This document shows, in pieces, positions 8,261 to 40,089 of a stretch of 64,000 nt of DNA; the stretch's first letter is position 1, and the number at the start of each line of letters is the position of its first letter. A model generated the notes under the pieces. It was not told the origin of the DNA. It saw nothing but the letters and a program-made list of their open reading frames with translations, and did not search any database. A program made the position numbers and the translations under genes. Origin of the DNA: Mustelus asterias (taxonomy: Eukaryota). The stretch lies in NCBI RefSeq assembly GCF_964213995.1, contig NC_135804.1, forward strand, positions 59,768,001 through 59,832,000, in the 5' to 3' direction.

Positions 8261-9302
8261 GGCCTCGATTCTCCCATCGCCACCCGCAATTTTTCTGTCG
8301 GGCGTCGAGATGCGCGTCGCCGGCCTTGAACAGGGATTTGCGCATGTGCTGGGAACGCATGCTCATCTCCCAGAGCCGGCGAGCAGTCGCTGGTCAGACC
8401 ACGCTGGAAGCCGGCGGGAAGGCAAGTAAGTAATTTAAATATTTATGAAATATCTTTTAAATATGTTAATTAGTTCGTTATCAGGACCGTTCAGGTCCCG
8501 ATCGAATCTCCCACCCCGCCAGGAGTACTTCATGCCGGCGGGGTTCAGACTTGGTCCCCACGTTCGGGGAACTAACGGGAGACCGCGCTGGAATGGAGGC
8601 AAACTCGGGACCCCCCAGGCGTTCGGGCGGCGGGGGGGGGGTGGGGGGGAGGTGCCCCTGAGCATGGGCACCCTGACAGTGCCAGCCTGTGCCCCCTGGC
8701 ACTGCCCAAGGGACAAAGTGCCCATGCCCGTGGGCACCTTGGCACTGCCCATCGGGCATTGGGCAGTGCCAAGGGAGAGGGGCATATTGTGGGCGGGGCC
8801 TTGGGGCGATCGGTGGGGTGGGAGGGGGGGGGGGTCCGGCTGCTTCAGGATCGGCCTGGGATGAAGGGAGGGCAGCGATTGCGGGAAGCTGGGGGGGCGT
8901 GTTCTGCGGGGGGGGGGGGGCTGTCTCCGGTGGGGGGTCTGACCCCGGAGGGGGTCGGGGGTGTCTTCCGGGGTGAGAAGGGTAGGGGGATCGCCACTGC
9001 TGGGAGGGTTGCGCATCGGGGCGCTCGGGGGGCGGGGGGGGGGGGGTGCAGAGGGGCGACGGGGACGGTCCGCGCTGGCCAGGAAATTGCTGTGAGGGCC
9101 ACGATCGGGCCATAGCGGGAAAGGGGAGTTGGAGGAGCAGCAGTGCGGTGGTCCCGGACTGGCCAGCGATCGGGTTGGATTCATGACTGGGACCTCTGCA
9201 GTGCGCAGATTGCGGAGAATCAGGTGAGAAGCTGAACTGTCAAAGCAGCAGGGATTTAGAACAGTTTTGCTACCAATTCAGCACTTTTGGGAAAATCCGC
9301 CC
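8261..9302. mobile_element. GC-rich non-autonomous DNA transposon (MITE, PIF/Harbinger-like ends) inside the Gypsy element
   Basis: Imperfect terminal inverted repeats GGCCTCGATTCTCCCA / TGGGAAAATCCGCCC; abrupt GC shift; long G-runs; Gypsy sequence on both sides. Confidence 0.6.
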
Positions 9303-17131: not shown

Positions 17132-17511
17132 ACAAAGAACAACGAACTGTATAGTACAGGGACAGGTCCTTCAGCCCGCCAAGCCTGCCCCGATACATGA
17201 CGCCTTTCTAAACTAAAGAACTTTTGCTTATATGTGGTTCGTATCCCTCTATTCCTTATCTATTTATGTATCTGCCAAAATGCCTCTTAAATATTGCTAT
17301 TTTGTCCATGCCCGTCAAAATTTTGTAAACTACTATCAGATGGCCTTCGAAGTTCAAGTGGAAGCAAACCAAGTTAATCCAGTGTCTCATCATACCTAAT
17401 ACCCTTCAAAACAGGCAACATACTGGTAAACCTTTCTGTACACTCGCCAAAGTTTCCACATCCTTCTAATAGTGTGGCAGCCAGAACCTTATGCAGTATT
17501 CCAAATGTGGC
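17132..17511 (-). mobile_element. CR1 LINE 3' part (split by ERV insertion)
   Basis: CR1 3' tail and RT end; sequence ...CCAAATGTGGC resumes at 26993 CGAGCTAAAATTCTGTACATCTGC, as in the uninterrupted CR1 copy near 48440. Confidence 0.85.
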
Positions 17512-18186
17512 TGTTGTAGGTAAAAAACCTCTGACACTAATAGTAGATCAAACTGCAGTGTTTATTTTCACAATTGTGGGAGAAGTGAGGTTCCTAACAG
17601 TGGACCCCTGGCCTTCTCCTCGAACACAAGTAAGCACAGAGTTTATATATGTCCCGGGCCCCGCCCTCATTACATTGCAATTCTCTAAGATGTCTGTCAT
17701 TGTTCATGGTGAGATTCTTGTTGTATTAGCAGTATCTTCCTCTGCGTAGTTTGTTCGATCTCCAAGGCCACGATTGTTCGGCATTTATATCCTTGAAACA
17801 ACATCACAGGTTTTGCACAAACAAGTTAACTAATCTACATGCAGGTTTGTACAATAATTTATATCAGGATAAGATGAATAACGTATGATGAATATATATA
17901 TATGAATCTATGGTGATTCAAAGACAGAAGGCATACATGTCAACTTCATCGTGTTAAACAAAGGTACATGAAAATGGAGACTGTTTAGCTTATTTCGAGC
18001 TGGGTTAATCGGATTTCTTGATAACAAATGGAGACAGAGGAATAGCTGTTCCTTTTATCTGGCACAGACATGAAAAACACCGAACTCTGACAAAAACATG
18101 GACTCTGCAGTGTTCTCAACAAAATTACAGAGTTTGGGTCTTAATGCTTAAGTGTGACAAAGTTCATTAACCCATTCCCGACTGCA
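17512..18186 (-). repeat. ERV 3' LTR (675 bp)
   Basis: Direct repeat of 26311-26987, preceded on - strand by the PPT; retains a GGGCGGGG GC box next to the TATA. Confidence 0.95.
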
Positions 18187-18198
18187 CTCCCCCTTTTT
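18187..18198 (-). promoter_or_regulatory. Polypurine tract
   Basis: - strand AAAAAGGGGGAG abutting the 3' LTR. Confidence 0.9.
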
Positions 18199-18237: not shown

Positions 18238-19644
18238 TCAGAACCACATGTTATCGGGGAATGGGCCTAGCTCCTTAGTCGGGAGGTCTGCCCCCTCCGC
18301 CTGTACACTTGCGACTGTCATAATTCGCGCTGTTACTGTTTTGCAACAGGCGTTCAATAATGCCATACAAACACAGCAAGTAATTACAATTACAATTAAT
18401 ACAATCAATCCATGCATCAGGTATGGACCCCACGACCCGAACCATTGCCCCAGCCAGCCCGGAGGGTTATAATCATGATATTGGTTCCCTTCTTCCTGTA
18501 TTGCTTTTGCTACTTGTTTAATATGATCTGCTAAGCGAGTTATATTCTCCGAAGCTTCGGGAATATATGTACAGCATTCGAAGCCAACTATGGCACATGT
18601 TCCACCTTGGAAGGCTAGCACATAATCGAGTTCCAATCAGTTCTATAACGCCACAGTCCGAATAGCTACGACCTCTGCTGACATTTCAGAGATGGCCATG
18701 CTCACCTCCTCGAACCCATCCTTAGACTTATTTGTAACTTTCTCTAGGGTTGAGGACATCCGTATAAGTTCCTGTGCTGTCTTTGCCGTCCCATAAAATG
18801 GGTAGGCTATCATGAAGAATCGTTCTGTCTCACTAATGGGTCGCTTAGCCCTAAGCAGGTGTATTTCGGGGTGGTCCCGTAAGTCAATGTAATGGTGAAC
18901 ATAAGGCACCACATATGCCAAATAACACGATCCTGTTCAATTCCAGGGAAACCACGGATAGGCATTGTTTCCACAGACAAAATAGGTACCATTATATGCA
19001 GTCATCTCGCTTACATAAGCGGAGGAGAGGCTAACTGGGACAGTGACTATGGGGCACTGGATTGTGACCTGTATCATGGCCTCAGCGTCATCAGTGATAT
19101 CAATCTGCTGTATACAGTAGCTACGGCCAACAGGTATGGTTCCATTTCTTATCAGGCAGATAACTCCCCTTTGTTCACAATGAAGTAGGGTGGGGAATCT
19201 GATCTGTTGTAGCTGGGCTGGTAATTCTTCTTAAAGGACGATAAAGTGCACCCTCCGCCCCCTAGCCTTGAAACAACATCACTGTTGCTGATACCCTGCA
19301 TAGTGGTACCCGATGGGGTTTTAAATGTCAGTTGTCTTGTCCCTTTCTGGGTTCCATTCCTTATTTAAAACCCATTCAATTACTTCTGGAGCTGATAAAG
19401 GGATAGGAAATAAGGGAATTCCTCCCTTTCCTCCGTGCATGGGAATGTGTGAACAGACCCAGCACTTGCTCAGATTCGATTGTGATGCATACAGATAAGA
19501 CATATACACAAAGGTGTTCATACAATAGACAGAGTCATCATTACAGAGATGATCACTGTGCTTCACCCCTAACTCATAATTCAATTTATATTCTCCTGCT
19601 ATGGCTAACAGGGCCAGGGTCCTGAGTATCAGCATGAGAAGCAT
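18238..19644 (-). pseudogene. env: ERV env, gamma-type (SU CWVC; furin RAKR; ISD plus CX6CC; TM anchor), with multiple stops/frameshifts
   Basis: Signal peptide MLLMLILRTLALLAIAG; SKCWVCSH; LLRAKR|PISETERFF; VAL*N*LELDYVLAFQGGTCAIVGFECC; hydrophobic anchor LMHGLIVLIVIVITCCVCMALL. Confidence 0.92.
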
Positions 19645-19789
19645 CTTATCACTTACTAATATCCCGCGCGACCGTTATACAATGGTCCAAAGGCTATATC
19701 GCCCACGCGCAACACCGCGGATCCGCGAACCCGTTCAGCTTGTTTGGAGGTCACTCGTTGTTTGCTTATATCTGTAAGTGGAGTATATC

Positions 19790-20250
19790 ATATGTTTTTC
19801 CAATTAATTTCAGCATATTCAACTGAGTATATACAGGCACAGATATCTCCACTAATTATAACTTCATACGGCTCATTTCATTTTTGTACAAGCCCTGATT
19901 TGTTAGGTAATATTTTTACTAGGACATCCCACTGTTGGGACTGTCAGGGAGCATTTCAAGCTCTCTCTGCATCTCTTACTTTTTGATTGTCTTTTACCGA
20001 TTTATGCATCCCTTTTAGTTGGGTGCTTAGTTCCAAAACATATCTCTTGATTTTATCTTTTAGTGGACCTACATCGGTCCCACCTGTTATGATGCTTTTT
20101 GGTAATTGCATCGTCCGTCCTGTCATTAGCTCATAAGGGGTTAATCTGGTTGTTTGGTTTGTAGCAACCCTTAAACTCATTTAGTATGGTGGGCAATACC
20201 TTCATCCACGTTTTTTTTCCCGATGTCTGTATGGCCTTCGCCAGTGCAAA
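19790..20250 (-). pseudogene. Second, divergent integrase C-terminal fragment
   Basis: ALAKA..WMKVLPTILMSLRVATNQTTRLTPYELMTGRTMQLP..DVGPLKDKIKRYVLELSTQLK..EPYEVIISGDICAC, paralogous to ~22850-23156. Confidence 0.85.
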
Positions 20251-22748
20251 GTAGTTTTGCCCAATGTAATTAATTGTGCTATGCTTTAAGTTAATTTAAG
20301 CTAATTTGGCCTCGGCAGCTTGGAATTCTGAGTCCAATTTAGAAACCTAGCTGCATTCTCTGATAGTACGATGTAAGGTAAACAAACTTTCTCATGGCCA
20401 AGTTGTTGATGTAGCTGGAGACTGCTTGTATGTAATAATCAGTTATGCTTTAGAAACAGATGTTTTGTTTTTTTTAATCTCAGTACTGGTTTTTGGTTGG
20501 TCTCCCTCTCCTTTCTCCAAAATAACCGTTATTTCAAAAATAATGCTTAAAGAAAGGCATATTTACTTCAGATCAGTCGAGTTTATTCTGAAGAAATAAA
20601 TAGACCCTTCAATTGGCTTGGGGCGAATCACACAACACTTTGCACTGGCTGCAGCTGGACATTTTATCAAAAGACATCGCTTTTCTCATTTAGATCACAT
20701 ACCATACAACTCTGATCATTATATGATGTATTTTTACATTATATCTAATTTGATCATTTGCTTGTCCATATTTAAAAGTGCAATGTTTAAGCAGAAATGA
20801 TCCTTCTATAGACAGATTGTCTCACAAGGTAAACACCAGTGTTTCGTGTTCATAGATGCCAATTGTATGCTGCCATACACAGCTCTTTAAAAACACAGAT
20901 AACCGAATAAGCCGTTTGTTGTGTGCAGTCGAATGCTGCAAGATTTTTGAGTCTGGCTGCAAAGCCAGTCTCCAACTCTTTTTCTCTCTCTCTCAAGTAA
21001 TCCGGTTTCACTTCCTGTCATGTTAATGTTAATTGTGCAAGCTATTACAAATTATGGCAAAGAATGGTTACATGTTTGGAATAACTAGCCTTTTTTTCAC
21101 AGACTTATGTTTTTATCAATACACAATATATATTATGTCGGGTATCTCAAAACCCTCTTAATTTAATTTTTAATTAATCTGTTTCCATTTTTAAACTGAG
21201 CTCCAGATCAGAATTCCTTCATTTTCAGAACGATAACAAGCACAATACATATAACAATAACAAGAGTTACTTGATTAGAAATGTTTTGGTTTGCTTCCTA
21301 GCTGGCTAGGTTTTATGCTTTGCAGTGTTCTTAGATTTGGAAAACCTTGAACAATAGATAGAACAATTCCAACGGCAGTATATAATTTTAACTAGTTACA
21401 CTATCAGAACTATCATCAATGTTAGATGATTTAAATGATGTAATTTGTTGCATGTTATCGGAACATCACATATGTCTTGAATTTCATATCGGTAACTAAC
21501 TGGCAACACAAGTTCAAATAATTCATGGTGTTCAATGGTTGGCATCAAATGCAAATTAAAAATACTCAAGGACAACATCTTTATTTGTATTAACAACTGA
21601 GGTTTTAACTGATTTAATCTCCTGCTGTAACTTGGGATAATCGGAACTACGATTCATTGATTTGATAGACTTAAACTGACTCATAGACAGTATATTCACC
21701 TCATTCTTTTGTTCCTGCTTTTCTATTTTTCATCAAATTACTTATTATTTTTTTAACTTCTCAACTATACTCTTATAATTTCAACTTCAAGACAAGGAAA
21801 GAGCACATGGTCCTTCCAAGGTCTAACTCCTTTCTCAACATTAAAACGAACAACAACAAAACATTCACGCAGTTAAACACACAGATACACATGGAAGCTT
21901 CCAACATTTATTCAGACTTAACATCTTAAACTGGAATGGAAGTAAAACATTTAAGAATACAGACCGTTGATTAACAGTCGCTCTTATGCTGCTGCCTTCC
22001 AAACTGTAATTCAACTCAAAACAGAAGTAAATTCAAGAAATCTTATCACTTTAATCTTTAACCGTTTGTAACAAATACTTCCGCAGCATTTTCTTATCTC
22101 ATTATTCCACTGAATTATTTCCCTCATCTCTAATTATATTGATTTGTCAATTTGGTATTATAGGCGGGCACTCCCTTTTAGCCCGTCTGAAATTTAATAC
22201 AGTTTCATGGTTGATCCACGTAACACATTTTAATTCGAATGCATTATGGCAGTACAATAATTCCCAGTATGACACACACACTGCCATTCTACCTTATGTA
22301 ACTCCCTTCTCTGTTAAATTTTGACTATATCTTAAAATTACTGCAAGTCTTATAACTCAGAGGAACATAAACAAGTGATTCATCATCATTTCAAATACGC
22401 AGGAATAATTCTTTCTATTTATCTTTTCAACTTCAGTTCTATCAAAAATACATTTTCAAATTTAACAAAAGCCTGATCCAAATAATCCATTTATTTTATC
22501 ACTTTTAAATATCCCTCCTAAAATAATTATCTTTACACAGGCAGATGCAAGATCGAATCTACTGTGTGCTTAAATGGCTAACTCTCCTTACGACTCTTCA
22601 GATGTAATCTAATGCTATTATTCCCACATTCCCCAAATCTCTGTCCGATGCATTATCGTAAAATTTACTGGGGAACGTAATTTATTAAACTCGCATTGAT
22701 CTGCTATACCCCATTCCAGCACATGAGGCTCTCGATCGCAATTATATC

Positions 22749-25060
22749 TTACATCTCTCCCTCTCTCTCTCCCTCGAGTGAGAGAAACTTACAACCTGCT
22801 TGTTTTCTTTCAACCTTTATTCCCCTTTTAACTGTTTTGTTGCGGTAATTGGTGTATTCCTTTAACTGAGTCCAATGCTTCCAGACACCCCTACCTTGCA
22901 TATCTATGCAGGCACAGGTGTCTCCACTGATAATGACCTCATAGGGGCCTTTCCAAATGGGGGCAAATCCAGGTTTTCCTGGTAGTGTTTTTACCATAAC
23001 CTTGCTGCCTGCCGGTGGTACCTCCGGGGTCTGTTCTAGTTTGTTGTGCTCATCTATCACTATTTGTTTGTCCCATACTGTTTTCCGCATATCTTTCAAT
23101 TGGGAGCTTAACTCTAATACATATCGTCTAATCCTGTCCCTTAATGGGCCTACATCTGCATATTTCCCTGATCCATCCACAAACAGGGCCAAATCTGGTG
23201 CCTCCAGGGGCACATCTTTTATTCTACTCTCCTCTACCTCTTCGTCTACGTCCCCACATGAGTGGGGAGACCCTTCACCTAACATTCCTTCTACGGGGTT
23301 CATTCCCATGTCTCGTGCAATGGTGATGGACTTAGTGGGTGGGAGAAGCACTGCCTCCCACTTCGCCCTTCTCATGTTTGAGACAGACCGCAATTTTCCT
23401 GTGTTCAGCATTTCCACCAAGGTATGTTTGGTGCGTAAAACAATATTCCCCGTCATTATGATGGGCTCGCTGACCTTTTTACTACCCATGCCGCACAATC
23501 TAGTGCGGCTATACATCTGGGTAACCCGGTTACTACGGGGCCCTCCGCTGTGGAATAATAACCCACGGGTCGCTGTTTGTCCCCATGGACCTGTGTGACT
23601 ACTGCCGATTAAAACCCCCCTTCGTTATTACAATAAATATGAAAATCTTTACTAGCGTCAGGCAGTCCAAGTTCTGGAGCCTTCATTAGTTCTACTTTTA
23701 GTTTACTATGTACCCTTTCCTGTTCTGATCCCCATTCTATAACTTCTAGAGCGGGTTTCCCCCCTTTTACTAGCCTTTGTATTGGTTCGACGAGCCTTGC
23801 GAATTCTGGTATAAAGTGGCGGCTGTAATTAAACAACCCCAAAACCTTCCTTACCCCTCGGACGGTTACTGGTCTTGGCATTTGCTGTCCAGTGGCATTT
23901 CTTTGGTCCCCTGGGATATCAGGTGTCCCAAATATAATACCTGCGCTTTCCCTATTTGGGCCTTCCTGGGGCTCGCCTTTAGTCCCTGTTCTTTGAAGTG
24001 TTTCAGGTCTGAGTATAGTGCCGTCTGGTGTTCTGCTCTAGTTTCGGAGGCTATTAAGATGTCATCTACATACTGCAGGATTGTGCTCCCCCTCGGGACC
24101 TCTACTTGTTCTAATATCTTACTCATGACCCGGTGAAATATAGCCGGGCTATTGTGGAAGCCTTGCGGGAGCCTCGTCCATGTGTACTGTTTATCACCGA
24201 CGGTAAATGCAAATTTATCTTGTGAATTAAAGTCCAGGGGAATGGACCAAAATCCATTGGCGATGTCTAATACCGTAAAGATTCCATGGGATGGTGATAA
24301 CCCGTTTAAAATGGTAGATGGACTAGCCACGATGGGCTGTAACTTGGGGGTCACTTTATTTAAAGCGGTATAATCAATGGTTAATCTATAACTCCCGTCT
24401 GGTTTAGGCACCGGCCAGGTGGGGGAGTTGGTGGTATTTGTGGTTTCCCGTAGTATCACTCTTTTTACCAATCCCTTTACAAGTTCTTCAACTGCTTTTT
24501 TGGCCTCGGGCTTAATCGGGTATTGTCGGTGTGGTTTATGTTCTGGCCCTTCCATGAGTATAAGGGGAATTTTGACTAATCCAGTATCCAGGTTTGTTTC
24601 CGCCCATACCCCGAGGATTGAGGCGCAAATGGTGCCAAATCCATTACATTCTAACTGCCAGTTGCGTCCAGTTGCAGATGCTGCATGGATGGTTTCTAAA
24701 TGGTTAACATATGTTCCTACCCTGTCTTTTCTCCCATCGGGGCGGGGCCAAATCAATTCGCCTTTCCCGCAATCTATTAAGACTTCGTATTCTTTCATCA
24801 GGTCATTTCCCATAATAGTTCCTTCATTATTTTGACATACATAAAATCGCATAGGTATATACAGGTTATTAATTTCTACTAGGGTGGTTTCCCTTAAGTA
24901 GGCAGGGTCTTCTGTCCGTTCACACCCCTTATATAAATCATTTTGTTTGTGGTGGGCAAGGGTAGATCAGTGATAGATATGGAGGCTCCCGTGTCCACCA
25001 GCATTTCGCATGTCTGCCCCCTACTAGTGCAGACACGTAGATTCTACCCTCCTGTTCATT
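22749..25060 (-). pseudogene. pol: ERV pro-pol (frameshifted; RNaseH/IN core deleted)
   Basis: Protease MLVDTGASIS (~24975-25008) and GTIMGNDL; RT NSPTWPVPKPDGSYRLTIDY, LDIANGFWSIPL, WTRLPQGFHNSP, YVDD; tether; RNaseH LFVDGS fused to IN C-terminal WKGPYEV. Confidence 0.92.
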
Positions 25061-25249
25061 CGTATCGGGATTTTGGAACAACATTGGCAAGCCTATTATC
25101 TCCGGTTTGTTATCTTTCCTTTGTTTGGCTTGCTGTTCTAATCTTTTTCTCGGTCTTGTCTTTCCTTTGCAGTCTCTCTCATTCTGGTCTATCTCTTTTG
25201 TCTTTCTCATACGCCTCACATTCTCACTTCAACATTACCCAAGTTTAGG

Positions 25250-26010
25250 GTTTCCCTCATTATCACATACACATACCCTCTTCTACGTGCATTATCCCCC
25301 TTTGGAGCCCTACAGTGCCTGACAAAGTGACCCAGTTTCCTACAATTATGGCACGCAGCCTTTGGTTTATCTTCTCTACTGTTTGCCCTAACGTTTTCCT
25401 GTTTTATTTGTAGGTATGGTTTCTCATCTGGTCCATCTCTAATTCCAGATGCCCAATTCCACTAATTCATCATAAGTCTGGGTATTGAGAACTCCCATTT
25501 TAAGGATTTTTTGGTGAGCTGGCGACAGCCCGTCTTTAAATGCTTGTAAAAAGGCTCTATCTGTTCGGGCAGCTTCGGGTACTCCCCAACATTCTTGGTA
25601 TATTCTAAAGAGTCGCTCCCCAAATTCGGAGGCTCTTTCACCCCTTTGTTGATTAACATTTTAATTTTTTTTTTGACATCAGCCCATTTCTTACCCGAGA
25701 CTGAAACCTGTTCAATTAATCCGGCCAATTGATGAACTAAGAGAACTCCAATTTTCTTAGTTTTGTTTTTCTTTTCCTTTTCCAACCATTTTCGTTGTTG
25801 GTCTAGTGGATGGTCTAAATCCCATCCCCCTTTTATCATCTGTTTTATGAGTCTGTACCTCTTGATCATAAATTCATTTATTAGGGACCCAGGGGGTCCC
25901 CACTGTCTTTGTCCCGCCATAACACTGATAAGTTTATACTCACCACCTGGAGTGACTTATTCTCCCTTCTCACTCTCCCTCTCCCAGGTCGCTCTTATCG
26001 GAGTCTGGTG
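25250..26010 (-). pseudogene. gag: ERV gag remnant (short, disrupted) with NC zinc knuckle
   Basis: ORF 25462-25920 plus downstream KAACHNCRKLGHFVRHCRAPK (CX2CX4HX4C) at ~25300-25360. Confidence 0.75.
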
Positions 26011-26290: not shown

Positions 26291-26308
26291 ATCCCGGACG
26301 AGCCCCCA
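26291..26308 (-). promoter_or_regulatory. Primer binding site, tRNA-Pro
   Basis: - strand TGGGGGCTCGTCCGGGAT, 2 nt after the 5' LTR; the same 18-mer as the MLV tRNA-Pro PBS. Confidence 0.92.
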
Positions 26309-26310
26309 AT

Positions 26311-26987
26311 TGTTGTAGGTAAAAAACCTCTGACACTAATAGTAGATCAAAATGCAGTGTTTATTTTCACAATTGTGGGAGAAGTGAGGTTCCTAACAGT
26401 GGACCCCTGACCTTCTCCTCGAACACAAGTAAGCACAGAGTTTATATATGTCCCGGGCCCTGCCCTCATTACATTACAATTCTCTAAGATGTCTGTCATT
26501 GTTCATGGTGAGATTCTTGTTGTATTAGCAGTATCTTCCTCTGCGTAGTTTGTTCGATCTCCAAGGCCACGATTGTTCATCATTTATATCCTTGAAACAA
26601 CATCACAGGTTTTGCACAAACAAGTTAACTAATCTACATGCAGGTTTGTACAATACTTTATATCAGGATAAGATGAATAACGTATGATGAATATATATAT
26701 ATATGAATCTATGGTGATTCAAAGACAGAAGGCATACATGTCAACTTCATCGTGTTAAACAAAGGTACATGAAAATGGAGACTGTTTAGCTTATTTCGAG
26801 CTGGGTTAATCGGATTTCTTGATAACAAATGGAGACAGAGGAATAGCTGTTCCTTTTATCTGGCACAGACATGAAAAACACCGAACTCTGACAAAAACAT
26901 GGGCTCTGCAGTGTTCTCAACAAAATTACAGAGTTTGGGTCTTAATGCTTACGTGTGACAAAGTTCATTAACCCATTCCCGACTGCA
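26311..26987 (-). repeat. ERV 5' LTR (677 bp)
   Basis: TGCAGTC...CCTACAACA on - strand; about 9 substitutions plus one 2-bp (TA) indel versus 17512-18186; TATA-like CATATATAAA and AATAAA on - strand. Confidence 0.95.
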
Positions 26988-26992
26988 GTGGC

Positions 26993-28240
26993 CGAGCTAA
27001 AATTCTGTACATCTGCAACATGACTTCCATGTTTTTATACTCTCGGCCCCGATTGCTTCAGGCAAGCTTGCCATAGACCCTCTTGACCAACTTATCCACA
27101 CGTGTTACCACTTTCAGGGAACTGGAGACCTGTATGCTTAAATCCTTTTGTATGTTAATTCTTCTCAGGGTTCTGCCATTTACTGTATACTTCCCTCCTG
27201 CCTTTGACCTTCCAAAATGCATCACCTCACCTTTGTCTGGGTTAAATTCTATCTGCCATTTCTTCACTCATGTCTCCACCCTATCCATATCCTGCCGTAT
27301 CCTCTGGAAATCCTCTTCACTATCCACACGCAGCTCCCCGAATCTTTGTGTCGTCCACAAACCGACATTCTCCTCCAAAGCATTTACACACATATTACAA
27401 ACAACGGGGTCCCAGCACTGATCCCTGTGGACACCACTGGTCACATAACTCAAGTCAGAAAAACACACTTCCACCGCTACTCCCTGTCTTCTATGATGAA
27501 GCCAGTTCTGTATCCATCTTACCAGCACACCACAGATCCCATGCTGCACATTCTGTATCAGCCTGCCATGAGGTACCTTCACAAAGACCTTATTAAACTC
27601 CTTGTAGACATGTCCTCCTCAATCACCTTTGCCGCTGACTCAAAATACTCATTCAGGTTTATGATAGGCGACCGCCCCAGCACAAAGCATGTTCCTATCG
27701 CTAATAAGTCTATCTTTTTCCAAATGTAAGTAAATGCTGCCCCTACGTATGCTCTCCAATTATTCCGCTACCATTGATATAAGGCTCAGCAGCCTGTAAT
27801 TTCCTGGATTATCCCTCTTGCCATTCTTAAACGAAGGATCAACACTGGCTATTCTCCAGTCCTCTGACACGTCTCCTATGACTAAAATGGAGAGAACGTT
27901 TTCCTCCAAGGCCCTAGAAATTTCCTCCCTCAGTATTCTGGGATAGATCCTGTTAGGTCCACGGGACTGCTCTAACTTAATGCTTTTCAAAACATCCCAC
28001 ACCTGTTCCTTTTTAAATCAACATGACATTCTCTAGCCTCACCATCCACTATGTCCTTCTCCTTTGTGAATACTGATGCAAAGTATTCGTTAAGCACATC
28101 ACCCACTTTCTTTGGTTCTACGCATAAATTCCTCCTTTGTCCTTGAGTGAATCTATCCTTCCACGAGCTACACTCTTGCTCCTTGTACATATACATAATG
28201 CCATGGGATTTTCCGTAATCCGTAATGCCAACATGCCATT
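26993..28240 (-). mobile_element. CR1 LINE RT, degenerate (5' part of the ERV-split copy)
   Basis: ORF fragments KVPHGRL, WQIEFNPDK, PGNYRLLSL, NEYFASVFTKE. Confidence 0.88.
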
Positions 28241-39880: not shown

Positions 39881-40089
39881 TACTGCAGCAATAGTTCAAA
39901 GATGTGGATTCGTAATGCCGAGCAAATGGGGTAAAACTTGCAATGGGATGGTGAGAGTTTGAATTCAGCTGATATATATATAATATATATATATATATCA
40001 GCTGAATTCAAACTCTCACCATCCCATTGCAAGTTTTACCCCATTTGCTCGGCATTACGAATCCACATCTTTGAACTATTGCTGCAGTA
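39881..40089. repeat. Perfect inverted repeat (~100-bp arms) with (TA)n centre, followed by a (TA)n tract
   Basis: 39881-39981 is the reverse complement of ~39989-40089; AT microsatellite continues to ~40135. Confidence 0.95.

What the first reader, a model, noticed from the sequence alone, without database searches (positions are those of the whole stretch)
19790..23156. Two divergent integrase tails in one provirus: possible record of env capture by recombination
Seen: the IN C-terminus occurs twice in the same orientation. Copy 1 is DVGPLRDRIRRYVLELSSQLK..KGPYEVIISGDTCAC (~22850-23156) and copy 2 is DVGPLKDKIKRYVLELSTQLK..NEPYEVIISGDICAC (~19790-20250). They differ far more than the two LTRs do, and only the second leads into env (candidate - strand acceptor CCACTTACAG at ~19772-19781). 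Inference: the duplication predates integration, i.e. a template switch joined one virus's gag-pol-3' region to a related virus's IN-env cassette, and the chimera was then mobilised.
Basis: partly seen in the sequence, partly recalled or inferred. Interest (0 to 1): 0.7.

Follow-up and report, generated by a model that had tools for sequence, protein, structure and literature searches.

The report
Shark retrovirus carrying a recombination scar
A multi-copy endogenous retrovirus of a likely shark genome carries a second, broken integrase tail from a sister virus, likely picked up by recombination with a defective element, while its envelope gene belongs to its own lineage rather than being a captured one.

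Summary
The doubled integrase tail is real: 165/245 nt (67%) between copies versus 666/675 between LTRs. It recurs at many loci of a provirus family with a 5-bp target-site duplication, so it predates integration. The env-capture reading fails for this element. Copy 1 is the normal end of its own pol, shortened here by an ~870-bp deletion. Copy 2 comes from sister lineage S2, whose own env (E2) is only distantly related. The window's env matches a single-integrase parent (X0) as closely as its pol does (87-93% versus 90-93%). The genome holds likely parents and intermediates: defective elements (truncated gag, AT-rich block, S2 integrase stub, env) whose 20248 junction occurs 437 times. Some keep E2; others cross into an X0- or S1-type env at five or more positions. 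The double-integrase family likely arose when X0 jumped from the end of its integrase (~22850) into such an element's truncated gag, probably twice. Net effect: a ~3-kb insert between native pol and native-lineage env. This is a well-resolved case of known ERV mosaicism (Harlequin, recKoRV).

The parts
26311..26987 (-). 5' LTR (TG..CA); target-site duplication GCCAC at 26988-26992
26291..26308 (-). primer-binding site; the tRNA-Pro assignment is recalled, not from a call
   Evidence: sequence
25301..25956 (-). gag remains with internal deletions; zinc knuckle
   Evidence: 82-84% to sister family S1
25048..25300 (-). piece of the gag MA-like region of a third, distant ERV lineage (T); in donor elements this piece opens the intervening block
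   Evidence: 70-74% to L316-L319; 85-89% to donors
23160..25047 (-). pro-pol (PR, RT, start of RNase H), broken by frameshifts; ends at the ~870-bp RNase H-IN deletion junction 23160/23159
   Evidence: RVT_1 E=3.8e-35; 90-93% to single-integrase parent X0; deletion seen against siblings
22850..23159 (-). integrase C-terminus, copy 1: native end of pol
   Evidence: 91-93% to X0, 83% to S1, 66-69% to S2/S2b; tree
22830..22850 (-). junction J1: jump from the end of integrase into the truncated gag (RITTTKQL region) of a defective donor
   Evidence: same letters follow gag in donors L279, L281, L282
20249..22829 (-). AT-rich block (about 31-38% GC), non-coding since the subfamilies split, origin mostly unknown; 20626-20249 is specific to the window's subfamily among fetched loci
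19828..20248 (-). integrase 3' half, copy 2: S2/S2b-lineage stub starting at junction J2 (20248)
   Evidence: 88% to S2b, 89% to donors, 67-68% to X0
19772..19828 (-). crossover back to X0/S1-type sequence in the conserved end of integrase, then the candidate env splice acceptor (AG ending 19772), which lies on the X0 side
   Evidence: diagnostic-site painting; splicing not tested
18238..19644 (-). gamma-type env E1 (short SU form), broken by stops and a frameshift
   Evidence: 87-93% to X0 env, 80-81% to S1 env
17512..18198 (-). polypurine tract (18198-18187) and 3' LTR (18186-17512); target-site duplication GCCAC at 17507-17511

Best explanation
The provirus is a copy of a mosaic class I-like endogenous retrovirus whose second integrase tail comes from a sister lineage (S2) and was likely brought in by template switching with a defective element, while pol and env both belong to one parent lineage (X0). 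Shown: the lineages of each segment, the junction letters, and the coexistence of X0 (single integrase, same short env), S2/S2b (copy-2-type integrase, env E2) and single-integrase defective elements (gag cut in CA, intervening block, J2, S2 stub, env). Inferred order: (1) an S2b-type virus had the stretch from gag CA to the integrase core replaced by the block, leaving the stub and E2; (2) such helper-dependent genomes, co-packaged with X0 or S1, crossed over in the homologous stub and exchanged E2 for E1, several times; (3) an X0 genome jumped from the last codons of its integrase into the cut gag of such an element (J1), gaining block, stub, env and 3' end, hence two tails; this likely happened twice; (4) the window's subfamily later lost ~870 bp of RNase H-IN and so would have spread with helper enzymes. 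The stub itself is not predicted to make a protein.
For: IN-tail tree: first copies group with S1, second copies with S2/S2b/donors, 100/100, 55 rows. X0 found at 4 of 20 fetched loci. Window versus X0: RT 90-91% (one partial 97%), IN1 91-93%, env SU 90-93%, env TM 87-90%, but copy 2 only 67-68%. Four-fold sites versus S1: pol 0.34-0.42, env SU 0.27-0.34, env TM 0.36-0.46 for window-type and older double-IN copies. Env tree puts the window inside the X0 env clade, 100/100. J2 27-mer: 437 places, control 0. Of 30 exact-J2 loci, 15 continue into E2, 9 cross to E1 in the stub, 3 cross ~530 nt inside E2, 3 could not be classified. J1 letters match donor gag. A 5-nt deletion in the stub is shared by the window, older double-IN copies and donors L277-L281, L283. 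Window-type pol groups with X0 copy L296 (97/95), apart from other double-IN copies, and has a different J1.
Against: The order of steps 2 and 3 is not fixed: E1-bearing single-IN donors could instead derive from double-IN elements by a crossover in the block. Several inner branches of the trees are weak (open forks; segments of 200-700 nt, midpoint roots). The 30 J2 loci were the first exact matches listed, not a random sample. Searches score only the best 40-150 candidates, so rarer parents can be missed. The last ~370 nt of the window's block differ from the donors' version, so its J2 neighbourhood has been reworked by an event I could not explain. Gene conversion between integrated copies could mimic some stub crossovers. 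Co-packaging and template switching are inferred from established retroviral biology, not observed.
Confidence: 0.8

Rival explanations
1. One reading: a gag-pol-plus-AT-block virus captured the integrase-env cassette of a related virus at 20250, so the env is foreign.
For: Copy 2 is from another lineage, and J2 did join the block to a stub followed by that lineage's own env E2 in 15 of 30 loci. Formally the 3' half, env included, did come from another genome.
Against: The window's env is E1; E1 and E2 align only over 187 aa of TM at 36%. It is as close to X0 env as pol is to X0 pol. No full S2-type IN leading into E1 in 30 loci. No block ending in its own LTR: 3 hits, each J2 with one changed base. 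None of 15 IN1-plus-block loci showed E2.
Confidence: 0.06
2. Same parts, other order: X0 took up block plus stub in a double crossover (out at J1, back in the integrase end), and the single-integrase E1-bearing elements are later derivatives.
For: Double-IN copies and donors L278, L280, L283 share the same crossover position and the 5-nt deletion, which fits either direction. None of the data polarise it.
Against: It needs two switches in one cycle, twice over if the two J1 junctions are independent. L281 has the 5-nt deletion while still carrying E2 sequence, which places E2-bearing donors first.
Confidence: 0.1
3. The AT-rich block is a decayed first env that was replaced by a second integrase-env cassette.
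For: It sits where env would, has a pyrimidine-rich AG at 22787-22773, a hydrophobic stretch near 21260 and an 85-97 aa frame open in many copies.
Against: No Pfam family in 6 of 6 frames at E<=10. One frame searched against 1.84 billion representatives hit one unannotated 104-aa protein only. Indels between subfamilies are mostly not multiples of three, with no codon-position bias. The block follows gag, not pol, in donors and opens with gag remains of a third virus.
Confidence: 0.03
4. Nested insertion or misassembly.
For: No single contig or read in the 4 runs laid spans the whole stretch.
Against: No internal LTR or second LTR pair. 16 of 61 listed matches cover both tails in one alignment at different places. 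Contigs of two runs labelled as other organisms bridge the 20248 junction (records 18 and 26).
Confidence: 0.01

Closest known systems
Harlequin and other remobilised mosaic HERVs; 'env snatching' (Vargiu et al. 2016, PMC4724089; passages seen)
   Same: Same-sense mosaic of related class I ERVs, repeated at many loci with different flanks, one LTR type at both ends, no third LTR; explained there by co-packaging and template switching, with defective forms spread by helpers.
   Different: Here parents and intermediates are resolved at base level in one cartilaginous-fish genome, a duplicated integrase end is retained, and the window's env is of its own pol lineage.
recKoRV (Löber et al. 2018, PMC6112702; passages seen; author name recalled)
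   Same: Defective recombinants made at microhomologies, with the same breakpoints reused independently, then amplified with target-site duplications.
   Different: recKoRV replaces KoRV's interior with a dissimilar element. Here the defective element's 3' half was taken back up by a full-pol virus, lengthening it.
Anamniote ERVs with gamma-type Env (bioRxiv 10.1101/2021.11.23.469661; passages and section 8 seen)
   Same: Class I pol with gamma-type env in cartilaginous fish; pol/env incongruence attributed to frequent recombination.
   Different: That work compares deep pol and env trees; the parts I read show no junctions or doubled integrase. Its supplements were not seen and may list these families.

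Membership tests
Endogenous retrovirus (integrated provirus) | Paired TG..CA LTRs, target-site duplication, PBS, PPT, gag-pro-pol-env order | tested here: met
Class I (gamma/epsilon-like) ERV | Pol closest to gammaretrovirus-type RT among solved structures | tested here: met
   Sister-family pol (S1): best PDB hits are RT/RNase H p80 chains, E=4e-102, ahead of Ty3 and foamy chains; that p80 denotes MLV-type RT is recalled
Class I (gamma/epsilon-like) ERV | Placement in a Pol tree with named genera | not tested
   No named reference set was fetched; genus-level assignment is left open
Gamma-type env | SU CXXC, furin site, TM CX6CC, membrane anchor | tested here: met
   CWVC, RxKR and CX6CC in the S1 env and in the window's env frames; weak TLV_coat hit below cut-off
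Env capture (env from a lineage other than pol's) | Env more distant from the pol parent's env than pol is from its pol, or grouping with another lineage | tested here: not met
   For the window's family. It is met for the defective donors, which exchanged E2 for E1
Remobilised mosaic ERV (Harlequin/recKoRV type) | Same mosaic at several loci with different flanks, all in sense | tested here: met
Remobilised mosaic ERV (Harlequin/recKoRV type) | Same LTR at both ends, no third internal LTR | tested here: met
Remobilised mosaic ERV (Harlequin/recKoRV type) | Origin by co-packaging and reverse-transcriptase template switching | not testable with these tools
   Inferred from junctions in homologous or microhomologous sequence
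Nested (secondary) integration | Internal LTR(s) and an internal target-site duplication around the insert | tested here: not met
   Self-comparison finds only the LTR pair and the IN repeat; insert ends lie inside gag and integrase of donors

The most novel reading that the evidence does not exclude
A defective retroviral satellite acted as an envelope exchange hub: its dead integrase stub served again and again as the crossover zone through which envelopes of helper viruses were swapped in (five or more breakpoints, two env lineages), and its cut gag end was a hotspot at which full-pol viruses twice took the whole cassette back, so that hundreds of proviruses record a reciprocal gene traffic between autonomous and defective retroviruses, caught with parents and intermediates in one genome.
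Probability: 0.4. Interest if true: 0.6.

Novelty: new variant of a known kind. Interest (0 to 1): 0.4.

Why it matters
Env exchange among retroviruses is mostly inferred from conflicting pol and env trees. Here the junctions, both parent lineages and several intermediates sit in one genome, so where and how often crossovers fall can be measured. It also warns that a second integrase in front of env does not by itself show env capture: here the scar remained while the env returned to the original lineage. The mechanism is known; the case is unusually complete and from a little-studied host group.

Tried and rejected
Parent B (full copy-2-type pol plus this env): 20 of 28 listed variant places of the copy-2 start were fetched and all 20 had the block upstream; 0 of 30 loci found with an env segment had it. 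Parent A (block ending in its own LTR): a PPT-like run before J2 suggested it, but an exact pattern gave 3 hits, each J2 with one changed base, and none of 15 IN1-plus-block loci showed it. Family N (IN1-type end, block, E2-like env tail, other LTR) was considered as a relic of an X0-pol/E2 chimera; its env tail is only 69-77% like S2 or its nearest relatives, so I read it as a separate capture of the block. Block as a decayed fusion protein: Pfam blank, one unannotated hit, Rfam blank, no longer homologue for its 5' frame. The source of the AT-rich 2.2 kb was not found; only its first ~400 nt trace to a third ERV's gag. Expression and splicing remain untested: no RNA holder listed. No age in years is given because no calibrated rate was used. 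Earlier scan notes: nothing found.

Full report
Observation. The window holds a provirus on the - strand with LTRs at 26987-26311 and 18186-17512 (666/675 identical), the 5-bp duplication GCCAC on both flanks, a PBS at 26308-26291 and a polypurine tract. The integrase end occurs twice, at 23156-22905 and 20075-19830, 165/245 nt identical. The host is inferred to be a cartilaginous fish: a 74%-identical pol piece is named from a sawshark and two runs holding a small share are labelled shark metagenome.

It is a family trait, not a local accident. A search with 19900-23300 listed 61 matches, 16 of which cover both tails in one alignment; 14 of those share the window's deletion at 23160/23159. 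All 40 of 40 matches to 19400-20330 span the 20248 junction. The start of copy 2 occurs 117 times (control 0). Copies with the missing ~870 bp of RNase H and integrase exist, so copy 1 is simply the end of pol. Contigs of two runs labelled as other organisms bridge 20248, though no record spans the whole stretch. Counts include near-identical copies in segmental duplications and small contigs, so they overstate independent insertions; pattern counts also miss diverged copies.

Where each part comes from. A protein search with the integrase core led to two single-integrase sister families among 20 fetched loci: S1 (7 loci; pol ~81% to the window, integrase running straight into an env ~80% like the window's, called E1) and S2/S2b (10 loci; pol ~70%, integrase tail 81-86% like copy 2 from exactly 20248, followed by another env, E2). 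E1 and E2 align only over 187 aa of TM at 36%. A tree of 55 integrase tails splits first copies plus S1 from second copies plus S2/S2b at 100/100. Diagnostic sites show that copy 2 is S2-type up to the DIRGKG/WKHW region and S1/X0-type afterwards, including the candidate splice acceptor and env. A closer parent then appeared: 4 of 20 loci fetched with an integrase-end pattern (61 places) are single-integrase proviruses, X0, with the same short E1 env and no block. The window matches X0 at 90-93% in pol and 87-93% in env, but only 67-68% in copy 2. Four-fold-site distances to S1 are alike for pol and env, and the env tree places the window among X0 envs at 100/100.

The donor. The older form of the 20248 junction (J2) occurs 437 times. 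Of the first 30 exact matches, 15 continue through the S2 stub into E2, 9 cross into E1 within the stub, 3 cross about 530 nt inside E2 at a 9-nt shared word, and 3 could not be classified. In the 13 E2-type loci fetched whole, 12 showed S2-type gag running into the block with no pol, and 10 had paired LTRs 94-97% alike. Crossovers to E1 fall at five or more positions, into env of X0 or of S1. In donors L279, L281 and L282 the block follows gag cut at RITTTKQL; the same letters follow the end of integrase in double-integrase elements, including the window at ~22850. The join that created two integrases is therefore J1, not J2. The window's subfamily has a different J1 from older double-IN copies, and its pol groups with one X0 copy at 97/95, apart from them, which suggests two independent jumps. 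A further family, N, carries an IN1-type end plus the block in another LTR backbone with an E2-like env tail.

The block. In donors it opens with ~400 nt of gag from a third, distant ERV lineage (75-82%); in the window that piece lies inside gag (25300-25048). The AT-rich remainder has no Pfam or Rfam match, and one frame hits a single unannotated 104-aa protein. Indels between subfamilies are mostly frame-breaking. Its origin is unexplained, as is the ~370-nt part specific to the window's subfamily.

Mechanism. Shown: segment lineages, junction letters, parents and intermediates. Inferred from established retroviral biology: co-packaging of helper and defective RNAs, non-homologous or microhomology jumps at J1 and J2, homologous crossovers in the stub, and helper-dependent spread of the deleted form. 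The order of the env swap and the J1 jump is not fixed by these data, trees are short and midpoint-rooted, and gene conversion between integrated copies could account for some crossovers. Splicing at 19772 was not tested; its AG is conserved in S1 and X0 and lies on the X0 side of the crossover.

Comparison. It works like Harlequin-type mosaic HERVs and recKoRV (passages of PMC4724089 and PMC6112702 seen), and env recombination is a known theme (passages of PMC10536682; passages and section 8 of bioRxiv 10.1101/2021.11.23.469661; its supplements were not seen and may list these families). Searches for a duplicated integrase or env capture in such proviruses gave no paper, and the listings showed none describing this family; the library lacks most subscription journals, so this is weak evidence of novelty. 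Verdict: observation confirmed, interpretation partly supported, a new variant of a known kind; interest 0.4.

Noticed in passing
window 39881-40089: Perfect inverted repeat, 102-nt arms 5 nt apart; a hairpin element or an assembly artefact.
   Followed up: no
window 17344-17511 and 27003-27496: The provirus interrupts a LINE-like repeat that has other copies in the window; the CR1 label is recalled from its translation.
   Followed up: partly
window 8500-9000: A 70% GC stretch in a ~42% GC background, possibly a CpG island.
   Followed up: no
S1 and S2 families: Sister families include very young insertions, with LTR pairs 99.6-99.8% alike and long open pol frames at many loci.
   Followed up: partly
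G000:C8:50.16-50.81 Mb; G000:C26:19.03-19.13 Mb: Clusters of near-identical proviral copies (97-99% on C8; ~6-kb spacing on C26) suggest segmental or tandem duplication after insertion.
   Followed up: no
L144:1566-6679 and relatives (family N): About 25 copies of a defective element with its own LTR and PBS carry the same AT-rich block, with an S2-type RNase H piece inserted in it; LTR pairs up to 98% alike. The block has thus been kept in several backbones, which hints at a cis role but does not show one.
   Followed up: partly
L048:5920-7050 and L041-L051: One branch of the window's family has a ~120-nt pyrimidine-rich insertion at the candidate env splice acceptor and a different U3 in its LTR.
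   Followed up: no
L316-L319: A third, distant ERV lineage (T) with a different gag-pol carries an env related to E1 (70-84% in short stretches), a further env exchange.
   Followed up: partly
L149:4890-5148; L110:4708-4881: Some copies have moved or deleted parts of the second integrase stub.
   Followed up: no
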